Shown: positions 1 to 5,698 of the stretch, in pieces
Layout of the letters: each line of letters starts with the position of its first letter
Numbering within the stretch: position 1 is the first letter of the stretch
NCBI GenBank assembly: GCA_019113165.1
Contig: DXHV01000055.1
Span: 30,009 to 94,008, forward strand
DNA length: 64,000 nt
Source of the DNA: Candidatus Desulfovibrio intestinipullorum
GTDB taxonomy: Bacteria > Desulfobacterota > Desulfovibrionia > Desulfovibrionales > Desulfovibrionaceae
Reading direction: 5' to 3'
Translations under genes and position numbers: made by a program
The notes under the pieces: model-generated
The model's input: the letters and a program-made list of their open reading frames with translations, nothing else
What the model was told of the DNA's origin: nothing
Databases searched by the model: none

Positions 1-820
1 AGGGGCTTCCGGGCAAGGGGGCTCCCGGTGCAGGGAACAGAAAAAGGTTGAACCACAGACCTTTTTCGCTCCAATGTGCTTGGGTATCCTGTTCCTGTGG
101 ATTTTGCAACCGCACAAGTTTGTGCGTTCCGTGCAGCACGGTCTCTGCATCCCCCCGAAATCACGCATCTGCATGGAAATTGCATAAATTCGCAAGGCTG
201 ATATTTGCCGAAAAGACAGGATTTTGTCTCCATGGTAGAAGACTGGATTTTTGTACCTGGACAGATCGCGAAGCCTTCGGCCCTCACCCGGACGCCCCCA
301 AACGGAGCACGCATGAAGAAACACAGCGTCCTTTTCGCAGCAAGAGGCCCTGTGCACAGGCTCTGTCCCCGGTACCGGCAGCTGCACCACGAGAACGCTT
401 TCCTGCGAAAGAGGAGCCATGTCTGCTCGTTTCTGGCCGGATCCCAGACCTGACAGGTCCTCTGGCGACCCCAGGGGAAACAGCAAAAAACATGCCAGAA
501 TAACTGAAAAAAAGAGTTGGCAAGGAGCCAGGAAGCTGCTAGGAAGAAGGAAGGGTATTGTGTACCCGGGGAATATGCTTTTTTGCATGAACCCCTTGCT
601 TGTTCAGGGCAAAAAGGCCCGGGGCGCACAAAACCAATCCAAAGGCTCTCGTTCATCATCAACCCCAACCAGTCAGGAGGCAACGCTTCCTCCCAAAGAT
701 CCCGAAGATCCCGAAGTTCCCGAAGCTCCCGGAGATCCCGGAGAGCTCCTGCAGCACCACTCCTTTGCCTGCATCAGGCCACAGGGAATTCAGGGCCTGG
801 GAGGCCGCGCTGAATCATTT

Positions 821-1117
821 ATGGAAGAGCGCCAGAACAGACAATCCGCACAGGAAAAGCTGCGCAGGCAGCGTCGTACCATACTGGCGGGCCTTGCCGC
901 TGCAGGCCTGGCCTACGCCGCCCCGGGTCTCCTCTCCCTCAACGAGGCTCATGCCTATTCACACCCGAGCAGACGCTCCCGCCCGTCCCGCAGATCGCGC
1001 CCGTCGCGCAGGTCCCGTTACTCGCGTTCAAGACGGAGCAGACGCTACAGCCGCTATACAGGCCCCACCCATCCGAGCCGCTACGGCAGGGGCCGGGATG
1101 GTCGCTACGGCTGGTAG
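821..1117 (+). CDS. small exported (twin-arginine-leader-like) protein with extremely Arg/Ser-rich repeat tail, hypothetical
   Basis: Internal ATG 821 of ORF 419..1117 gives MEERQNRQSAQEKLRRQRRTILAGLAAAGLAYAAPGLLSLNEAHA (RR motif, hydrophobic core, AHA site), then SHPSRRSRPSRRSRPSRRSRYSRSRRSRRYSRY...GRYGW. The repeated SRRSRP units use different codons. No clear SD, so the start is uncertain. Confidence 0.4.
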   Translation: MEERQNRQSAQEKLRRQRRTILAGLAAAGLAYAAPGLLSLNEAHAYSHPSRRSRPSRRSRPSRRSRYSRSRRSRRYSRYTGPTHPSRYGRGRDGRYGW

Positions 1118-1419
1118 CAGACTGGCCGAAGACGGTCAGCCGTTGGAAATGCCGGCAGACTGATTCCTGCGGACCTCCTGTCCGGCTGCCAGGGACGTGC
1201 AGCCACACGGCTTCCTGACAGGCGTCAGGGCTCGCGGCCTCGGAACAACACGTGCGGCACAGGGAACACGACACTGTCCTGTGCCGCTTTTTCGTGCTCT
1301 GCCTTTCCCAAACCTGCTGGCCATCTGGTTCACTGGCCGGATTTCGGGCCGCTTCCCGGGGTCAGGAACCAGGGACAGTATGCAGTCCCAGAGAATCCTC
1401 AAGGAGTCAGGATACAGTC

Positions 1420-3171
1420 ATGCACAGCGACAGGCAGTCAGACGGACCATCAGACAGGTACAAGGCTCCTTCCCCCAGGCCTTCAGGAACAAAGCCCCTG
1501 CTGCAGACGGCGGATCTGCAGGTGCAGGGGCTGAACGGTCACGTGCGTCTTTGTCTGACCAGTGACGAACTTCGCGCCGTCCATGCCTACCTTGCCCTGT
1601 GGCCGCACACCCTCGTCTGTCATGAGACAGCGGACGGAGCTTTGCCCAGGACCGTGTACCAAAGTCCGCGTCCCTGTGAAGAAGGCGCTCAGGCCAAAGG
1701 CTCGGCTGACACGAGTCCGCCTGAAGAGGCAGACTGCCTGCTTGTGCTGCGCCGCAGGGAGAATGATTCCTCTGGAACAGACAGATCGGATGGGCCTGAT
1801 TGTTCTGATGGGCCCGGACTGACGAGGCAGGTCCGGTCGGCCAGTCAGCCTGTTCAGCCTGATCGGGCTGATCCGAATGCTCCGAATGCTCCGCACGAGG
1901 TTCACGAGACGCCCAAAACACGACTGGAAAGGCAGTTTCAGGCCTGCGGGCCCGGCGGGGTCAGCTATCTTCTGGAAAAGGATCCCACGGCGCCCTCGGG
2001 ACAGCGCCAGGAAGTGACCCTGGCCGCAGCCCTGTGCAGCCTGGGCATAGCCCTGGTGGCCCATTTGTGCACCACGCAGGGTCTGCTGAGCATGCACGGA
2101 GCGCTCCTCGTTCCTGCTGCAGACAGCGGGAGCGGCGGCCTGCTGCTCCTTGGCGCCAACCGCGGCGGCAAGAGCTCGCTCTGCGTGCGCCTCATGGCCC
2201 TGGGCCTGCGCTCCCTTGGCGATGACATGCTGGGCCTCACCACAGACGCCACCTTCTTTTCCCTGGGCCTTGCGCCGCGCCTGCGCCTCCCCCTGCCCCC
2301 TTCCCGGGTTCTTGCCGACTTTGCTGCCAGGCATGCCGGCGCAGGCGATGAACGAGCCTTCTTCCTGCAGCCGGATGCGCGCTACCTGGAGCCCTTTGCA
2401 GGCCGGTCTCCGGTCAGCACACTGAGCCAGATTCTGGTCCTGGAGCGCGTGCCCAGAGTGCTCTGCCAGCAGCCATCCGTCCAGGCCCGGACCCCGGCAC
2501 AAACGCTCACCGAGCTTGTGGGGCGCTTCTTCATGCAGGAAGGATCGGCCCTGGACGTCCTTGATGCCGCCTGCCGCCTGGCCGAAACCGTGCCCTGCGC
2601 CACCTTTCGCTATGCCGACCTCGACGAGGCGGCCGAGCTCCTCGGAAAGCTTCTGCAAAGGCCTGCCCACGGAGACAAGCGCGCAGCAGACCGGGGCCTC
2701 TTTTTTGAGGGCTGGGAGGACGCCCTGCTGCCTGCGCCGGACAGACAGGGCGATGACGGGAGGAACGCAGGGACAGCCTCCGGCCCTGACGAAGAAGAAG
2801 TCGAAGAAGCCCGGGCAGACGCTCTGGCTCTGCTCAGTGAAGAGGAAGACGGGGAAGACGAGAACGCCCCGGACCCGGACTACGAGAGCAGCAAGATAGA
2901 GGGCACACAGGAATACTGCCGCTGCGAGGGCGTGCTGCTGGAACAGCGTCTGGGCACGGACTTTCTTGTGAACCCGAGCCGGGATGGCATCCATGTCCTC
3001 AACCAGACCGGCCGCATCATCTGGCAATTGCTTGACGATCCCCTCAGTCTGGACGAAGCCTGCCTGCTTCTGGAAGAAGTCTACCCGCAGACGGATCCGG
3101 ACTGCATTGCCGGGGACATGCAGGAACTCTTTGCCGACCTGCTGGACGCGGGGCTCATCAGGTCCTGCTGA
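1420..3171 (+). CDS. HprK-related Ser-kinase-like P-loop protein fused to a C-terminal PqqD/RRE-like peptide-binding domain
   Basis: In-frame ATG 1420 preceded by AAGGAG (1401-1406) within ORF 1252..3171. MHGALLV..GGLLLLGANRGGKSSLCVRLMALGLRSLGDDM matches the HprK C-terminal kinase P-loop. The last ~75 aa (LGTDFLVNPSRDGIHVLNQTGRIIWQLLDDPLSLDEACLLLEEVYP..FADLLDAGLI) are PqqD-like. An acidic linker lies between the two domains. Confidence 0.65.
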   Translation: MHSDRQSDGPSDRYKAPSPRPSGTKPLLQTADLQVQGLNGHVRLCLTSDELRAVHAYLALWPHTLVCHETADGALPRTVYQSPRPCEEGAQAKGSADTSPPEEADCLLVLRRRENDSSGTDRSDGPDCSDGPGLTRQVRSASQPVQPDRADPNAPNAPHEVHETPKTRLERQFQACGPGGVSYLLEKDPTAPSGQRQEVTLAAALCSLGIALVAHLCTTQGLLSMHGALLVPAADSGSGGLLLLGANRGGKSSLCVRLMALGLRSLGDDMLGLTTDATFFSLGLAPRLRLPLPPSRVLADFAARHAGAGDERAFFLQPDARYLEPFAGRSPVSTLSQILVLERVPRVLCQQPSVQARTPAQTLTELVGRFFMQEGSALDVLDAACRLAETVPCATFRYADLDEAAELLGKLLQRPAHGDKRAADRGLFFEGWEDALLPAPDRQGDDGRNAGTASGPDEEEVEEARADALALLSEEEDGEDENAPDPDYESSKIEGTQEYCRCEGVLLEQRLGTDFLVNPSRDGIHVLNQTGRIIWQLLDDPLSLDEACLLLEEVYPQTDPDCIAGDMQELFADLLDAGLIRSC

Positions 3172-3389
3172 CAGCCTGCAGAAATCCTGTTTGTCCCCCT
3201 GTCTGTCCCCTCTGTCGGCTCCCTGCCGAATCCGGCGGAGTCCCAACGGCCGGCCCCCTGATGTGCAGGACGTGGCAGGGTCCTGCCGCCATTCCGGGAA
3301 AAAAGTGTACCAGACAGGTCAGGATCGGCCCGCATCCTGGCTGCATATAACGTATCTTCAGGGCAAAAGCGTCTTTGGGAGGCAAAGAC

Positions 3390-3830
3390 ATGATAGCGAC
3401 ATTTTCCATCCACAATTTCCGATCCATTGCCGACACGACTCTTGCTCTCTCCTTCGGCGAGGGCAAGGCACCCCGTGGCTACAGGACATCGCCGGAATGG
3501 ATTTTTTGCGAACCCAAAGCCCGGCACAGGATAGTGCCCTGCCTGGCCTTGTACGGAGCTAATGCGTCCGGAAAGACAACCATTCTGAAGGCCCTGGCGA
3601 CCTTTGGGAAGATGGCAGTCGGGCATTGGGAAAAGGCTTGCTGCCAAAACAGGCTTGCTCCCAAAACAGGCTTGCTCCCGGTGACAGGACGACACGCTTT
3701 TCTCTGGAGTTCATTACAAAGAACACGTTGTACTGCTACACACTTGCCTGTGACGATCAGGGCCTCACAAGAGAAGAACTGTCTGCCAATGCCTCCCTGA
3801 TCTATTCGGTCCGGGAAGGCAGGCTTGTGT
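3390..3830 (+). pseudogene. AAA15/ABC-like ATPase, N-terminal fragment, frameshifted and truncated
   Basis: SD GGGAGG then ATG 3390. MIATFSIHNFRSIADTTLALSF...LALYGANASGKTTILKAL is the typical N-terminus plus Walker A. The frame breaks near 3650 and family-like sequence continues in another frame (RFSLEFITKNTLYCYTLACDDQGLTREELS, ORF 3626..3886). The rest of the gene is missing. Confidence 0.6.
3646..3679 (+). repeat. perfect 17-bp tandem duplication (aaaacaggcttgctccc x2) at the frameshift point of the ATPase pseudogene
   Basis: Read directly: units at 3646-3662 and 3663-3679, preceded by a related 15-mer aaaaggcttgctgcc. A 17-nt insertion is not a multiple of 3. Confidence 0.9.
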
Positions 3831-5003
3831 GTCCCCTGCCAGCAGCCTGGCCAGATCGCAGGCCGCAAGAGCGCCCCAGCGCCTGATCCAGCAGCCCACA
3901 GGGGCATACCAGCGGAGCACATCCCCTCCGTCCTGATGTGCCCTGGCAGGCGCATCCCCGTCTTCTTCTGTTCCGTCCTCCCCTGTTTTGTCTTCCTCGT
4001 CCAGCCAGTCCAGCCAGCTGGCCCCTTTGCCGTCTTCCTCCTCTGCGCCGTCCGGCCCGGGCTCGCTGCAGGCATGGCGGACAAAGTCCATGAGATCCCG
4101 TGTGCAGAAGAGTTCCATGTTGTCGCCTGCGCAGTACCTGCCGCTCAGGGCCCGCGCATCCTCCATCCTGTGGGCAAGACCTGCCCTGTGCAGCAGGGTT
4201 TCCACCTCGGAGCAGGTGAGGCCGAAGGCGTCTGCACCCCACAAATCCGGGAGGCCCTGACAGGTGACATTGTTGAAGCCAGTGATGAGATCGGCAAGGA
4301 CAATGAACAGGCTGCCCGTGAGCACGCCAAACTCCACGCTCCTGTTGCCCTTGAGGGAAGAGCTCAGGACATCCTGCAGAAAGAGGCGCATCCGGGGGTA
4401 ATAGCCGTGTGCCGAAGCCTGCAGGAGGGGCGCATCGTAGTCGTCGACGAGAACGACGACGCGCCGGCCGTACTGCTCGTACAGGGCGCGGGTCAGCGTT
4501 TCCAGGGGAAACTCGCGGGACCGCCTCCCTGTCTTCCCTGCCAGCCAGTCTTCGAGGTCTTCCCTGTCGTACCGGCACACGTTTTCCGACGCTGCCAGAT
4601 AGGCATGGCGCCTGTACTCCGTGACGACATCCTCCTGCATCCTGGCCCTGGCCTCTTCCCAGGTGACGGCGCCCTGCATGTTCCCGAAGGACACAAGGAC
4701 AACGGGGTACTGATTCATCCATTCCCTGCACACGTCCTCATGGGCCGAAATCCCGAGCCCTGCAAACAGCTCGCGACTGTCCTTCGTGAGGTCCAGGAAC
4801 TCGGCAAGCATGGAGAGCATCAGCGACTTGCCAAAGCCGTGCGGACGGGTGAAGAGCGTGGCTGCCCCAGGATGAAAAAACCGTTCCAGAAACCCCGTCT
4901 TGTCCACGTAGTACCCCTGCTCCTGGCGCAGGCTGGCAAAGGACGCCGTGTCCACAAGACGTATGCCCGAACCTCTGCTGTCTGAACGCTTGCTGTCTGG
5001 CAT
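3765..5003 (-). CDS. predicted AAA-ATPase family protein (AAA-ATPase_like N-domain), probably C-terminally truncated
   Basis: ATG 5003 with AGGAGA SD. FASLRQEQGYYVDKTGFLERFF..LFTRPHGFGKSLMLSMLAEFL is the family signature. The usual PD-(D/E)XK C-terminal domain is not recognisable. The C-terminus is acidic/low-complexity and overlaps the opposing pseudogene. Confidence 0.65.
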   Translation of the reverse strand: MPDSKRSDSRGSGIRLVDTASFASLRQEQGYYVDKTGFLERFFHPGAATLFTRPHGFGKSLMLSMLAEFLDLTKDSRELFAGLGISAHEDVCREWMNQYPVVLVSFGNMQGAVTWEEARARMQEDVVTEYRRHAYLAASENVCRYDREDLEDWLAGKTGRRSREFPLETLTRALYEQYGRRVVVLVDDYDAPLLQASAHGYYPRMRLFLQDVLSSSLKGNRSVEFGVLTGSLFIVLADLITGFNNVTCQGLPDLWGADAFGLTCSEVETLLHRAGLAHRMEDARALSGRYCAGDNMELFCTRDLMDFVRHACSEPGPDGAEEEDGKGASWLDWLDEEDKTGEDGTEEDGDAPARAHQDGGDVLRWYAPVGCWIRRWGALAACDLARLLAGDTQACLPGPNRSGRHWQTVLLL

Positions 5004-5698
5004 GGCACTTTCTCCTCGCTCAAGTGGTGTTTTCCTCATCTGGCTGCAGACTCCCGAGGGGCTGACCCCCCTTCCCTGTGTCACGGACCGGTCCGTGCTC
5101 TCATCTGATCTGGCCTGTCCTGAACCGGATCCGGCCGGATATGGCCGGGTCTGACAGCCCCTGGCGCCTCGTCCCCTCAATGGATCCTGCGCCTCTTCCT
5201 GATGAAGGATCCCGGAAATGCCCTTATGTCGGGGAGTCCCGGGAATCAGGCCGGATCTTTCCGGGGCCAGATCCTGCCGGAGCCGGATCCTTCCGGCTCT
5301 TCCCTTTCCGTTTTTCCTGCCTTTCCGGCTCTGCCTTCGGGCGCTTCCAGTCTTTCAGCCTGTCCCGCGCAGCCTGCGGAACCGGCATATCCTGCGTGCC
5401 GGCGTATCCTGCGTATCCGGTGTGCCCGGATCAGTGCGAAAAAACATAGCAGGTCGCCCGGGGAGAGGCAAGGCGTCAAAAAACAATGAACAATGCAACG
5501 GAGCAGCAGCAATGCACCGGGCAGCGAGGCAAAGGAACAGGGGGCTCCCGCGAAAAACGGGGCATCGGGTCTCCTGCGGCTTGACTGATTTAGCCCGGCT
5601 CACTATGTGAGCTTTCGGAAATTCGCTTCCGTTTCGCTTCTGAAGACAGGAAGGGAATGTTCCCCTGTTCCCGTCAGCCTTGTCATGGGGTTTTCGCC

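What the first reader, a model, noticed from the sequence alone, without database searches (positions are those of the whole stretch)
821..3171. Arg/Ser-repeat twin-arginine-leader peptide gene next to an HprK-like kinase fused to a PqqD/RRE domain
Seen: the small ORF ends in SHPSRRSRPSRRSRPSRRSRYSRSRRSRRYSRYTGPTHPSRYGRGRDGRYGW (19 Arg and 12 Ser in the last 54 residues). It sits behind a Tat-like leader (RRQRRTILAGLAAAGLAYAAPGLLSLNEAHA). The repeated SRRSRP units use non-identical codons, so this is not a fresh slippage artefact. About 300 bp downstream on the same strand, a 583-aa protein combines an HprK-type P-loop kinase domain with a C-terminal PqqD/RRE-like peptide-recognition domain. 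Established: HprK-family kinases phosphorylate Ser of RiPP precursors (phosphorylated lasso peptides such as paeninodin). PqqD/RRE domains dock precursor peptides. HprK-related kinases co-occurring with PqqD proteins are catalogued as a system of unknown function. Inference: the Ser/Arg-repeat peptide could be the substrate of a fused RRE-kinase, giving a multiply phosphorylated, exported cationic peptide. I do not know this arrangement to be described. No cyclase or protease partner is visible, but the window begins here, so upstream partners may be cut off.
Basis: partly seen in the sequence, partly recalled or inferred. Interest (0 to 1): 0.7.

Follow-up and report, generated by a model that had tools for sequence, protein, structure and literature searches.

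The report
Arg-rich exported peptide with kinase-RRE partner
A gut Desulfovibrio carries a two-gene module, a small arginine/serine-rich peptide with an export-signal-like leader plus an enzyme that fuses a peptide-docking domain to a serine kinase, and it most likely makes a phosphorylated secreted peptide of a kind described only once before, in a different form.

Summary
Window 821-1117 encodes a 98-aa peptide with 19 Arg and 12 Ser in its last 54 residues. Window 1420-3171 encodes a 583-aa protein with an HprK/PEPCK-fold P-loop kinase core and a C-terminal PqqD/RRE domain.

The pair is conserved. One or two small ORFs sit directly upstream of the kinase-RRE gene in 21 of 23 assessable, mostly independent loci. 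All other neighbours differ between clades. No cyclase, protease, exporter or nucleotidyltransferase lies within 10 kb.

The peptides share an invariant 28-residue leader block, RR..L..L...G..Y..P......EA.A. It reads both as a Tat-type signal peptide with an AxA cleavage site and as the YxxPxL motif that lasso-type RREs bind. The cores are hypervariable: about 29% Arg, rich in Ser/Thr/Tyr/Pro/Gly, median net charge +16.

The fusion family is large (479 clusters at 50% identity, E<=1e-30) and is annotated only generically. A split kinase + PqqD version exists. Alphaproteobacterial plasmid versions add an S8 protease carrying the same leader.

The closest published system is the Bacillota Linear Polyphosphorylated Peptides (2026). 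This module is not a member of that family.

I read it as a new variant: a minimal phosphorylated linear RiPP whose leader doubles as an export signal. Phosphorylation and export are inferred, not shown.

The parts
821..1117 (+). Precursor peptide gene (98 aa plus stop)
   Evidence: ORF. Homologues sit next to the kinase-RRE gene in 21 of 23 loci. pS exceeds pN. A 1-nt indel just upstream of the ATG in relatives fixes the start.
821..955 (+). Leader (M1-A45): polar n-region, RR, uncharged h-region, EAHA
   Evidence: In A3 the invariant residues are R18 R19 L22 L25 G29 Y32 P35 E42 A43 A45. The RR-to-AxA block has a fixed 28-residue length in 25 sequences.
872..877 (+). Twin-arginine codons (R18 R19) of RRTIL, a Tat-type motif
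   Evidence: Invariant in A3. 89 of 92 precursors pass a TATFIND-like rule: RRx[FLIVAM][LIVAMF] followed by at least 13 uncharged residues.
914..931 (+). YAAPGL, the YxxPxL RRE-recognition motif inside the h-region
   Evidence: Y32 and P35 are invariant. [Y/W]xxPx[L/V/I] is the motif bound by lasso and LPP RREs (PMC13381572; PMC10368454).
947..955 (+). A-H-A, the predicted signal peptidase I site (-3, -1 Ala)
   Evidence: EAxA is invariant in A3. The cleavage itself is inferred.
956..1114 (+). Core: 53 aa with 19 Arg, 12 Ser and 6 Tyr. Holds SRRSRP units and the YSRYTGPTHPSRYGR motif.
   Evidence: The motif is shared with L003, L011, L018, L020 and L022.
1254..1292 (+). Terminator-like hairpin (GCGGCACAGG...CCTGTGCCGC) plus TTTTT, between the precursor and enzyme genes
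   Evidence: The fold has -23.5 kcal/mol and z = -3.46, and 0 of 200 shuffles fold as well. The stem and T-run are conserved in L020. Attenuation is inferred.
1420..3171 (+). Kinase-RRE fusion gene (583 aa plus stop)
   Evidence: AF2 model: pLDDT 76.9, pTM 0.76.
2014..2658 (+). HprK/PEPCK-fold P-loop kinase core (about aa 199-413). Includes His226 (2095-2097), the P-loop GANRGGKS (2152-2175) and D268-D269 (2221-2226).
   Evidence: Invariant columns H226, G250, K251, S252, D268 and D269 in A1. They align with the L. casei HprK/P motif HG..G.[24 protein letters not shown]. Foldseek: PEPCK 1e-5; HprK/P 8e-4, TMt 0.41-0.53.
2905..3168 (+). C-terminal PqqD/RRE winged-helix domain (about aa 496-583)
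   Evidence: Pfam PF05402, E=1.4e-11. Best PDB profile hits are TbiB1, LppB, PbaB1 and TfuB1. Foldseek TbiB1 5v1v: TMt 0.82, rmsd 2.2. N528, D566, L570, L574 and L579 align with the YxxP-binding residues N33, D70, F74, M78 and L83 of LppB.
646..669 (+). 24-nt element CTCTCGTTCATCATCAACCCCAAC, about 150 nt upstream of the ATG. It may belong to the promoter or 5' UTR.
   Evidence: Identical in L020, L021 and L022 while the surrounding sequence diverges. Found only in the close clade. Function unknown.

Best explanation
This is a minimal biosynthetic module for a linear, phosphorylated, exported ribosomal peptide (RiPP).

Shown: gene 821-1117 encodes a precursor whose leader is conserved and whose core is hypervariable. 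Gene 1420-3171 encodes a protein with no predicted signal peptide, so presumably cytoplasmic. It joins an HprK-type P-loop kinase to a lasso-type RRE. The two genes travel together as a self-contained unit.

Inferred, step 1: the RRE domain docks on the invariant YxxPxL inside the leader.

Inferred, step 2: the tethered kinase domain phosphorylates Ser (perhaps also Thr) of the Arg-rich core. Two chemistries are possible. It may hit many R-S/R-T sites. Or, as the characterised HprK-like RiPP kinases do, it may add several phosphates to one junction-proximal Ser: S+2 here, which is 16 residues after the leader Tyr, against 19 in LppA.

Inferred, step 3: the same leader is also a Tat-type signal peptide (RRx[FIL]L, about 22 uncharged residues, EAxA). 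After release, the peptide is exported by the general machinery and the leader is removed by signal peptidase I after AxA. No dedicated peptidase or exporter is then needed.

Inferred, step 4: the mature product is a disordered Arg/Ser/Tyr/Pro/Gly-rich phosphopeptide outside the cytoplasm. Phosphorylation would offset its +16 to +19 charge. That would ease export and would keep a polycation from binding nucleic acids inside the producer. Its final biological role is unknown; candidates are an antimicrobial, a matrix or polyanion binder, or a mineral binder.
For: Linkage. One or two leader-bearing ORFs lie directly upstream on the same strand, often 3-18 nt away or overlapping, in 21 of 23 assessable loci. 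These span fusion proteins 98% to 29% identical to the window's, a split kinase + PqqD version, and two plasmid-borne relatives found with a distant family member. All other neighbours differ between clades.

Precursor anatomy. The invariant 28-residue leader block, hypervariable cores and several precursors per locus fit the usual RiPP pattern. The frame is under purifying selection.

RRE. Pfam PqqD passes its cut-off. The best PDB relatives are lasso and LPP RREs. The fold matches TbiB1 with TM 0.82. The residues that hold Tyr, Pro and Leu of YxxPxL in LppB are conserved.

Kinase. The His, Walker A and DD positions are invariant and align with HprK/P. The fold matches PEPCK and HprK. The split homologue hits TIGR04352 at E=1e-13.

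Precedent. HprK-like kinases phosphorylate RiPP precursors in an RRE-dependent setting (PMC13381572; PMC10368454).

Substrate. Every one of 71 distinct cores has Ser. 89% of Ser/Thr have Arg or Lys within -3..+2. Ser is at +2 in 33 of 71 cores, and [ST]N at +6/+7 is common in the EP-type cores.

Export. RR plus at least 13 uncharged residues occurs in 89 of 92 precursors, and EAxA is near-invariant. The same leader heads S8 subtilisin-like proteases in Shinella and Paracoccus, and such enzymes normally work outside the cytoplasm. Tat tolerates unstructured hydrophilic cargo of about 100-120 residues (PMC6708511). RiPP precursors that use a general signal peptide are known, namely the bufferins (PMC11626156).
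Against: No biochemical evidence exists for phosphorylation, docking, export or cleavage.

The kinase assignment rests on weak sequence scores: E about 1e-4 to PDB HprK, 24 bits to TIGR04352 against a cut-off of 200, and no Pfam Hpr_kinase_C hit for the window protein. It also rests on a predicted fold.

No TatP or SignalP run was possible, so the Tat call is pattern-based.

An RRE motif buried in a hydrophobic signal h-region is unprecedented, and Y..P could simply be part of the signal.

Two loci (L013, L026) have the enzyme without an adjacent precursor.

Exporting a polycation of +16 to +19 against the membrane potential is energetically awkward.

LppK did not accept Thr or Tyr in place of Ser. 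Thr-rich cores would then offer few sites.
Confidence: 0.6

Rival explanations
1. The hydrophobic segment is an uncleaved membrane anchor. The Arg-rich tail stays in the cytoplasm at the inner leaflet, where it might bind nucleic acid, polyphosphate or acidic lipids. The kinase-RRE protein switches its charge by phosphorylation. This would be a regulatory pair, not a secreted RiPP.
For: The positive-inside rule favours keeping a tail of +16 to +19 in the cytoplasm (core statistics). The kinase-RRE protein has no signal peptide. No dedicated exporter or peptidase is encoded nearby.
Against: The n-region also carries the invariant RR and further positive charges, so neither orientation is favoured. 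EAxA at the end of the h-region is invariant, as expected for a signal peptidase site. The same leader precedes S8 subtilisin-like proteases with a propeptide-like region, which are normally extracytoplasmic enzymes. Hypervariable cores with several paralogues per locus look like secreted products rather than regulators.
Confidence: 0.12
2. The small protein is an ordinary Tat/Sec-exported low-complexity protein that binds the envelope, matrix or minerals. The kinase-PqqD protein acts only as a signal-peptide-binding chaperone or proofreader, like TorD or DmsD. On this reading the P-loop domain works as an NTPase, or acts on something else, and does not phosphorylate the peptide.
For: The linkage and the Tat-like leader are as in the main model. 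Chaperones that bind Tat signal peptides before export are established for redox enzymes (my own knowledge, not tested here). The HprK assignment is remote.
Against: All catalytic HprK positions (His, Lys-Ser of the P-loop, Asp-Asp) are invariant in the 25 aligned sequences. Every core keeps Ser/Thr flanked by Arg. The only characterised HprK-like proteins that work together with lasso-type RREs are peptide kinases.
Confidence: 0.13
3. The small ORF is a chance open frame in GC-rich DNA and the adjacency is meaningless.
For: Spurious frames elsewhere in the window reach 27-29 R+S per 54 aa against 31 here. Gene callers do not call the 98-aa ORF. A 9-nt DNA repeat upstream (691-744) also reads SRRSRR in another frame.
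Against: The leader is invariant at 10 positions in sequences whose DNA has diverged to pS about 0.5-0.65. pN is below pS. A profile search finds 60 clusters of homologues. A well-placed Shine-Dalgarno sequence (AGGAGGG 5 nt before the ATG) is implied in other clades by the reading QEGIM.
Confidence: 0.02
4. It is a fragment of a larger lasso-peptide or LPP-type cluster whose cyclase, protease, exporter or nucleotidyltransferase lie elsewhere in the genome.
For: The RRE is of the lasso type and the leader has YxxPxL. Only 74 kb around the genes was seen (the window plus L001).
Against: No such gene lies within 6-10 kb in any of the clades examined. The module sits in unrelated neighbourhoods, for example next to tuf and ribosomal genes, a Wadjet-like island, or hydrogenase-type genes. 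Cores of 15-120 residues with about 29% Arg, and no obvious lasso-type N-terminal ring pattern on inspection (not formally tested), do not look like lasso cores. The leader lacks Thr(-2).
Confidence: 0.08

Closest known systems
Linear Polyphosphorylated Peptides (LPP; lppA-K-B-S-D-N) of Bacillota, Popov et al. 2026 (PMC13381572)
   Same: Both have a linear precursor with a conserved leader carrying YxxPx[V/L] and a highly variable C-terminal core of 35-200 aa, with one to three precursors per cluster. Both use an HprK-like kinase and a lasso-type RRE. In both, the leader is removed by signal-peptidase-type chemistry: a SipW-like enzyme in LPP, and a predicted AxA site here. A Ser close to the leader-core junction is present in both (S3 in LppA, S+2 here).
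   Different: Here the RRE is fused to the kinase instead of being discrete. No LppS, LppD or LppN gene lies nearby. The rest of the LPP leader motif (VLxHQxIxFETxxS) is absent; instead the leader is a Tat-type signal peptide (RR, h-region, EAxA). The cores are about 29% Arg. The hosts are Desulfovibrio and other Pseudomonadota rather than Bacillota, and the authors call LPP restricted to Bacillota. No sequence comparison with LppK was possible because its sequence was not on hand.
Phosphorylated lasso peptides (paeninodin / Bsf type) with HprK-like kinase and B1 RRE
   Same: An HprK-family kinase acts on a ribosomal precursor whose leader carries [Y/W]xxPxL and is bound by a PqqD-like RRE (PMC10368454; PMC13381572).
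   Different: There is no macrolactam cyclase and no B2 protease here. The cores do not look lasso-like. The paeninodin-type kinase phosphorylates the C-terminal Ser of the core. The leader here lacks the Thr/Ile(-2) signal.
HPr-rel-A system (NCBIfam TIGR04352 HprK-related kinase A, TIGR04353 PqqD_rel_X, TIGR04355 kinase B) and the SynChlorMet cassette (ScmC/ScmD)
   Same: These are catalogued, uncharacterised pairings of an HprK-like protein with a PqqD-like protein. They are the best NCBIfam hits for the kinase half of this family.
   Different: All scores are far below the curated cut-offs: 24-54 bits against 200, and 17 against 35 for PqqD_rel_X. The family here is a distinct, mostly fused lineage with its own Tat-leader precursors.
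Bufferins (MNIO-modified RiPPs with Sec signal peptides; PMC11626156)
   Same: The precursor uses a general-secretion signal peptide instead of a dedicated leader, peptidase and exporter. The partner protein contains an RRE-like domain. ECF sigma / anti-sigma regulators lie nearby, as they do next to the Shinella and Paracoccus loci here.
   Different: Bufferins use a Sec-type rather than a Tat-type signal. Their chemistry is Cys to thiooxazole by an MNIO enzyme. Their cores are folded and Cys-rich. In bufferins the signal peptide is dispensable for modification, whereas here the RRE motif lies inside it.

Membership tests
PqqD / RRE domain (Pfam PF05402) | Sequence match above Pfam's gathering score | tested here: met
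   45 bits against 23.4, E=1.4e-11, covering profile positions 4-67 of 67. The domain is also found in all 32 homologues.
PqqD / RRE domain (Pfam PF05402) | Winged helix-turn-helix fold with a three-stranded sheet | tested here: met
   AF2 pLDDT is about 85-94 for aa 496-583. Foldseek matches are TbiB1 5v1v (TMt 0.82, rmsd 2.2) and PqqD 5sxy (TMt 0.76).
PqqD / RRE domain (Pfam PF05402) | Binds the leader of a cognate precursor through a [Y/W]xxPx[L/V/I] motif (lasso-type subclass) | tested here: inconclusive
   The motif is invariant in the adjacent precursors. The LppB contact residues N33, D70, F74, M78 and L83 align with the conserved N528, D566 (D/E in all 25 sequences), L570, L574 and L579. 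Binding itself is not testable here.
HprK/P - PEPCK-like P-loop kinase superfamily | Walker A P-loop GxxGxGK[ST], preceded by a His-Gly and followed about 15 residues later by the catalytic Asp-Asp | tested here: met
   SMHGALL..GGLLLLGANRGGKSSLCVRLMALGLRSLGDDML. H226, G250, K251, S252, D268 and D269 are invariant and align with L. casei HprK/P 1jb1.
HprK/P - PEPCK-like P-loop kinase superfamily | PEPCK-like nucleotide-binding fold | tested here: met
   Foldseek top hits are PEPCK (E=1e-5) and HprK/P 1kkl, 2qmh and 3tqf (E about 1e-3, TMt 0.41-0.53). This rests on a predicted model.
HprK/P - PEPCK-like P-loop kinase superfamily | Match to curated family models (Pfam Hpr_kinase_C, TIGR00679) | tested here: not met
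   The window protein has no Pfam Hpr_kinase_C hit. Relatives P0018 and P0031 hit only at E=0.07-0.29, and some representatives hit TIGR00679 at 18-23 bits against 240. The protein is therefore a remote superfamily member, not an HPr kinase.
HprK/P - PEPCK-like P-loop kinase superfamily | ATP- or PPi-dependent phosphorylation of a Ser | not testable with these tools
   Needs an enzyme assay or co-expression with mass spectrometry.
HPr-rel-A system (TIGR04352 / TIGR04353) | Score above NCBIfam's curated cut-offs for kinase A and PqqD_rel_X | tested here: not met
   TIGR04352 scores 24.1 bits against 200 for the window protein, 51 bits for the split kinase of L040 and 15-54 bits for nine of ten representatives. 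TIGR04353 scores 17 against 35, in one representative only.
Linear Polyphosphorylated Peptide (LPP) clusters | HprK-like kinase plus RRE plus a precursor with a YxxP leader and variable core | tested here: met
   Here the kinase and RRE are one polypeptide.
Linear Polyphosphorylated Peptide (LPP) clusters | Dedicated SipW-like signal peptidase LppS, MsbA-like exporter LppD and NTP transferase LppN in the cluster | tested here: not met
   None lies within 6-10 kb in any Desulfovibrio locus. One NTP_transf_3 gene about 6.7 kb away in L011 is not conserved.
Linear Polyphosphorylated Peptide (LPP) clusters | Leader consensus YxxPxVLxHQxIxFETxxS | tested here: not met
   Only YxxPx[LVIM] is shared. 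The remainder of the leader here is ....EAxA.
Lasso peptide biosynthetic cluster | Asn-synthetase-like macrolactam cyclase (C) and transglutaminase-like leader peptidase (B2) | tested here: not met
   The called genes around 12 loci show no such Pfam families. The family-less neighbours upstream of the window were rescanned against Pfam and gave no hits.
Twin-arginine (Tat) signal peptide | Z-R-R-x-phi-phi motif, moderately hydrophobic h-region of at least 13 uncharged residues, AxA c-region, overall length above 30 | tested here: met
   The leader reads QRRTILAG...; the relatives SRRRFLLG and KRRAFLAG match S/T-R-R-x-F-L. 89 of 92 precursors pass a TATFIND-like rule, and the RR lies at residues 10-36. 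EAxA is invariant. This is a pattern test only; no TatP or SignalP run was possible.
Twin-arginine (Tat) signal peptide | Tat-dependent export and cleavage by signal peptidase I | not testable with these tools
   Needs reporter fusions, RR to KK mutants and tat mutants.

The most novel reading that the evidence does not exclude
A Tat signal peptide doubles as a RiPP leader. The RRE domain acts as a proofreading chaperone: it holds the signal's h-region through YxxPxL until the tethered kinase has phosphorylated many R-S/R-T sites. This converts a +16 to +19 polycation into a near-neutral zwitterion that can cross the energised membrane. The result would be a bacterial counterpart of the SR-protein / protamine / silaffin charge switch. 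The exported phospho-arginine-rich peptide of gut sulfate reducers would then act outside the cell, for example as a Pro/Arg-rich antimicrobial unmasked by phosphatases, or as a matrix or mineral organiser.
Probability: 0.2. Interest if true: 0.85.

Novelty: new variant of a known kind. Interest (0 to 1): 0.68.

Why it matters
If the model holds, it defines a large and so far unnamed RiPP-like family. There are at least 479 clusters at 50% identity, present in cultured Desulfovibrio piger, Halomonas/Vreelandella, Paracoccus and Shinella. The whole pathway is two genes, because export and leader removal are handed to the housekeeping machinery.

It would be the first case I could find of an RRE recognition motif embedded in a twin-arginine signal peptide. 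It would also extend the just-described phosphorylated linear peptides from Bacillota to Gram-negative bacteria.

The precursors are mostly unannotated or mis-called, so the family goes unnamed in current genome annotation.

The products are extreme polycations made by prevalent human gut sulfate reducers. That makes them candidates for interactions with neighbouring microbes, mucus, DNA or metal sulfides.

The system is small enough to be tested directly by co-expressing two genes in E. coli.

Tried and rejected
- Exact look-up of the 98-aa product found nothing, because callers report a 232-aa ORF.
- Pfam, NCBIfam and PADLOC gave no family for the peptide. PADLOC gave none for the enzyme, so a defence-system reading has no support.
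- The sigma-70 promoter scan found none, and the simple terminator scan missed the real hairpin because its loop exceeds 8 nt. Folding found it.
- Folding of the conserved upstream region 630-710 gave no significant structure (z = -0.22).
- Rfam at gathering threshold and tRNA scans of the window were empty.
- tblastn of the window enzyme against plasmids found nothing. A distant family member (P0210) did find plasmid loci.
- A search for an S8 protease or a second leader-bearing ORF in the window and upstream 10 kb found none.
- An all-against-all ORF comparison among loci was too noisy in this GC-rich DNA to define neighbours beyond the two genes.
- The RRE-Finder paper and the 2025 structure-based RRE survey do not mention kinase fusions. 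No paper in the library links twin-arginine signals to natural RiPP precursors.
- I considered and rejected a lasso cluster (no cyclase or B2), membership in HPr-rel-A (scores far below cut-off), and a chance ORF (purifying selection).
- I could not model the RRE-leader complex, because chimeric sequences are not accepted by the structure tool. I had no look-ups left to fetch the Halomonas or P0080 contexts.

Full report
**1. What is there**

It encodes 98 aa, and the last 54 residues contain 19 Arg and 12 Ser, encoded by mixed codons. The second gene starts at ATG 1420, 302 bp downstream on the same strand, and encodes 583 aa.

Composition alone is only modestly unusual in this 63% G+C DNA. 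The tail is the most R+S-rich 54-aa stretch among 634 stop-free stretches in six frames, but it scores 31 against 29 and 27 for spurious frames. What makes the ORF real is its conservation, described in section 3.

**2. The enzyme**

Pfam places a PqqD domain at the C-terminus (45 bits, cut-off 23.4). NCBIfam gives only a sub-threshold hit to HprK-related kinase A (24 bits against 200).

I aligned 25 homologues (A1). They share an invariant core: H226; G250-K251-S252 of a Walker A loop (GANRGGKS); D268-D269; and a PRLRLPLP motif.

A profile of A1 searched against PDB sequences gives two sets of hits.
- For the C-terminal domain: the lasso and LPP RREs TbiB1 (E=2.6e-5), LppB (9x8z), PbaB1 (9x90) and TfuB1.
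- For the core: HprK/P (1jb1/2qmh, E=1.3e-4; 1ko7; 3tqf). The HMMER alignment puts the family's His, P-loop and Asp-Asp on HprK/P's "[41 protein letters not shown]".

An AF2 model built from A1 has pLDDT 76.9 and pTM 0.76, with disordered inserts and a disordered linker. By Foldseek it matches PEPCK (1e-5), HprK/P (about 1e-3, TMt 0.41-0.53) and TbiB1 (TMt 0.82, rmsd 2.2).

Both domain assignments hold. The kinase half is a remote member of the HprK/PEPCK superfamily, not an HPr kinase.

**3. The peptide is a conserved partner**

I retrieved the genomic context of relatives with the search for related loci and the look-up of encoding contigs and with plasmid searches. One or two small ORFs with the same leader lie immediately upstream, on the same strand, of the kinase-RRE gene in 21 of 23 loci that have enough upstream DNA.

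These loci include:
- Desulfovibrio piger ATCC 29098 (L006);
- the most divergent fused member found by the first search (P0031, 29% identity; L024);
- a locus where the kinase (297 aa) and PqqD (93 aa) are separate genes (L040). That kinase hits TIGR04352 at E=1e-13 and is 28% identical to the window kinase core (E=1e-19).

The gap to the enzyme gene is often 3-18 nt, or the genes overlap.

Everything else around the pair differs from clade to clade: GGDEF-EAL here, tuf and ribosomal genes in the D. piger group, a Wadjet-like island in L011, and Fe-S oxidoreductase genes (FlpD, Fer4) in L016. The 10 kb upstream of the window (L001) holds no cyclase, protease, exporter or nucleotidyltransferase. 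The module is therefore self-contained.

There are two exceptions.
- L026: a recombinase gene and phage-like genes lie directly upstream of the enzyme gene, and no precursor is present.
- L013: no precursor was found nearby.

**4. Anatomy of the precursors**

Twenty-five distinct precursors share a gap-free 28-residue block, RR..L..L...G..Y..P......EA.A. In alignment A3 the invariant residues are R18, R19, L22, L25, G29, Y32, P35, E42, A43 and A45.

In this frame, synonymous differences exceed non-synonymous ones. The median is pS 0.53 against pN 0.25, and the closest pairs give 0.32/0.03 and 0.17/0.04. A 1-nt indel three bases before the ATG in L020 and L022 shows that translation starts at 821, not at the upstream in-frame ATG used by gene callers.

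After the AxA the sequences become hypervariable low-complexity cores:
- SRRSRP units plus YSRYTGPTHPSRYGR (this clade, L003, L011, L018);
- RRRTRRTRPS / RPGRTRPG;
- YHTYRSPRSR...GGYQGP;
- KSRKSRHSRHS;
- SGRGGSGRGG.

Over 71 distinct cores the composition is 29% Arg, 14% Gly, 13% Pro, 11% Ser, 6% Tyr and 6% Thr, with only 6% hydrophobic residues. The median length is 67 and the median net charge is +16. Every core contains Ser, and 89% of Ser/Thr have Arg or Lys within -3..+2.

The first residues of the core fall into two main types. One is [YHSG]-S-..., with Ser at +2 in 33 of 71 cores. The other is EP(W/R)(K/R)(H/R)[ST]N, with Ser/Thr at +6 or +7.

A conserved leader, variable cores and several precursors per locus are the classical RiPP signature.

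**5. Two readings of the leader, both supported**

(a) The leader is a Tat-type signal.
- A long polar n-region is followed by RRx[FIL]L. The relatives read S-R-R-R-F-L-L and K-R-R-A-F-L-A, close to the S/T-R-R-x-F-L-K consensus.
- About 22 uncharged residues follow, and the block ends in EAxA.
- 89 of 92 precursors pass a TATFIND-like rule.
- In Shinella and Paracoccus plasmids the same leader, followed by an S/G/R-rich stretch, heads an S8 subtilisin-like protease encoded next to the precursor and the fusion gene. This argues that the leader is a working export signal.
- Tat tolerates unstructured hydrophilic cargo of about 100-120 residues (PMC6708511).
- A strongly basic early mature region is also what I would expect to disfavour Sec. 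This point is from my own knowledge and was not tested.

(b) The leader carries YxxPx[LVIM], with Tyr and Pro invariant. This is the motif bound by lasso-type and LPP RREs (PMC13381572; PMC10368454).
- In the LppB-leader crystal structure the Tyr is held by D70, the Pro by N33, V35 and F74, and the next hydrophobic residue by a pocket that includes F74, M78 and L83.
- In the HMMER alignment these positions correspond to N528, D566 (Asp or Glu in all 25 sequences), L570, L574 and L579 of the window protein.
- Tyr and Pro are not required by Tat signals, so their invariance points to a second constraint.

**6. Mechanism proposed**

*Shown:* the gene pair, the domains, the motifs and the linkage.

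*Inferred:*
- The RRE docks on YxxPxL.
- The tethered HprK-like domain phosphorylates the core.
- The peptide is exported and signal peptidase I cuts after AxA, so no dedicated peptidase or exporter is needed.

*Phosphorylation site.* The characterised HprK-like RiPP kinases (LppK and the paeninodin-type kinases) place several phosphates on a single Ser, S3 in LppA. In LppA the Tyr(-16) to Ser(+3) distance is 19 residues.

*Expression.* A strong hairpin plus T-run at 1254-1292 lies between the two genes (-23.5 kcal/mol, z = -3.46) and is conserved in L020. It fits the common RiPP arrangement in which the precursor transcript is abundant and the enzyme is made by read-through. This is inferred.

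**7. Size and annotation of the family**

An exhaustive profile search finds 479 clusters (50% identity) at E<=1e-30. Nearly all of the best 150 are proteins of about 400 aa that match most or all of the profile; a few are truncated or longer.

Cluster members from Vreelandella and Halomonas are named only "PqqD family peptide modification chaperone", "PqqD family protein" or "Serine kinase".

A precursor profile finds 60 clusters with no Pfam domain; the only source name is "hypothetical protein". The Shinella precursor is likewise annotated "hypothetical protein". The Paracoccus precursor is frameshifted at a C-run and is unannotated.

**8. Comparison with what is known**

The closest published system is the Linear Polyphosphorylated Peptide family of Bacillota (PMC13381572). 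It comprises a precursor with a YxxPxVLxHQxIxFETxxS leader and a variable core, the HprK-like kinase LppK, the discrete RRE LppB, the SipW-like leader peptidase LppS, the exporter LppD and the NTP transferase LppN.

The module here works like an LPP system but is not a member of that family. The RRE is fused. LppS, LppD and LppN are absent. The leader outside YxxPx[LV] is different. The hosts are Desulfobacterota and Pseudomonadota.

It is also not a lasso cluster, since it has no cyclase or B2 protease. It is not a member of the catalogued HPr-rel-A or SynChlorMet systems, because its scores are far below their cut-offs.

Using a general signal peptide as a RiPP leader has a precedent in the Sec-dependent bufferins (PMC11626156). 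I found no report of a natural RiPP precursor with a twin-arginine signal, nor of a kinase-RRE fusion.

**9. Verdict**

It is best classed as a new variant of a known kind: a minimal, fused, Tat-leader version of the phosphorylated linear RiPPs. Phosphorylation, docking, export route, cleavage and biological role remain to be shown. The experiments are simple, and a cultured type strain (D. piger ATCC 29098) carries the module.

Noticed in passing
L042:3046-4383 (Shinella plasmid) and L041:3201-4466 (Paracoccus marcusii plasmid): S8 subtilisin-like peptidases encoded just upstream of the precursor and kinase-RRE genes begin with the same leader (e.g. TRRRMLQRLGIATGLAYAAPALLGLGSARA) followed by an S/G/R-rich stretch. 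An ECF-type sigma factor and a hypothetical gene lie divergently upstream. A convergent S8 protease also neighbours the split system in L040. No S8 gene lies near any Desulfovibrio locus.
   Followed up: partly
L041:4538-4925: The Paracoccus marcusii precursor loses its reading frame at a run of C near 4625. The shifted frame continues ...PTLVGFGAAHA|SGASGRGGGSGRGGSGRGG...SRPSRPGTRRDWSKPSR*. It is unannotated in RefSeq. The cause could be a sequencing error, a pseudogene or slippage.
   Followed up: partly
L040:2170-3706: Here the system is unfused: precursor (KS/RS-rich core), a 297-aa HprK_rel_A-like kinase, and a separate 93-aa PqqD that overlaps the kinase gene by 14 nt. It looks like the ancestral or split form of the fusion.
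   Followed up: yes
window 691-744: A 9-nt tandem repeat (TCCCGAAGA, 6 copies, 88% matches) lies in the region upstream of the precursor ATG. It is absent from L022 and not repeated in L020. In another frame it reads SRRSRRSRSSRSSRRSRR, which echoes the core. This may be coincidence or a relic.
   Followed up: partly
window 646-669: The 24-nt element CTCTCGTTCATCATCAACCCCAAC is perfectly conserved in L020, L021 and L022 about 150 nt upstream of the precursor start. It is followed by a GGAGGCAACGC(T/A)TCCTCC inverted repeat. No sigma-70 promoter and no Rfam match were found.
   Followed up: partly
L026:2489-4579: In one D. piger-like lineage, a tyrosine-recombinase gene and phage-like ORFs sit directly upstream of the kinase-RRE gene, and no precursor is present in 11.8 kb. 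An insertion apparently displaced or removed it.
   Followed up: partly
L001:9000-9698; L022:3-1244: Automatic gene calls merge or overrun the precursor. One call is a 232-aa product that starts 402 nt upstream in frame. Another is a 413-aa call on a different frame that covers the first L022 precursor. The true small genes are therefore missing from protein databases.
   Followed up: yes
window 2728-2889 (aa 437-490 of the enzyme): The disordered linker between the kinase and RRE domains is strongly acidic in this clade (EEEVEEARADALALLSEEEDGEDENAPDPDYE) but not in others. It could interact with the polycationic core.
   Followed up: no
window 3375-3800 (+) and 3765-5180 (-): A 141-aa ORF matches only the N-terminal P-loop part of the AAA_21 / AAA_15 families, so it may be a truncated gene. 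It overlaps the 3' end of a convergent PF09820 AAA-ATPase_like gene.
   Followed up: no
L001:2831-5140 (about 3.7 kb upstream of the window start): A 769-aa protein with several long hydrophobic stretches, so probably a membrane protein, has no Pfam or PADLOC family. It is syntenic in L020, next to an 84-89-aa basic protein and a GGDEF-EAL gene.
   Followed up: partly
L011:1-15163: In this lineage the module lies inside an apparent defence island. The island holds EH_Signature, SNF2/Mrr, JetD_C and DUF3375 (Wadjet-like) genes and SbcC/SbcD-like genes.
   Followed up: no
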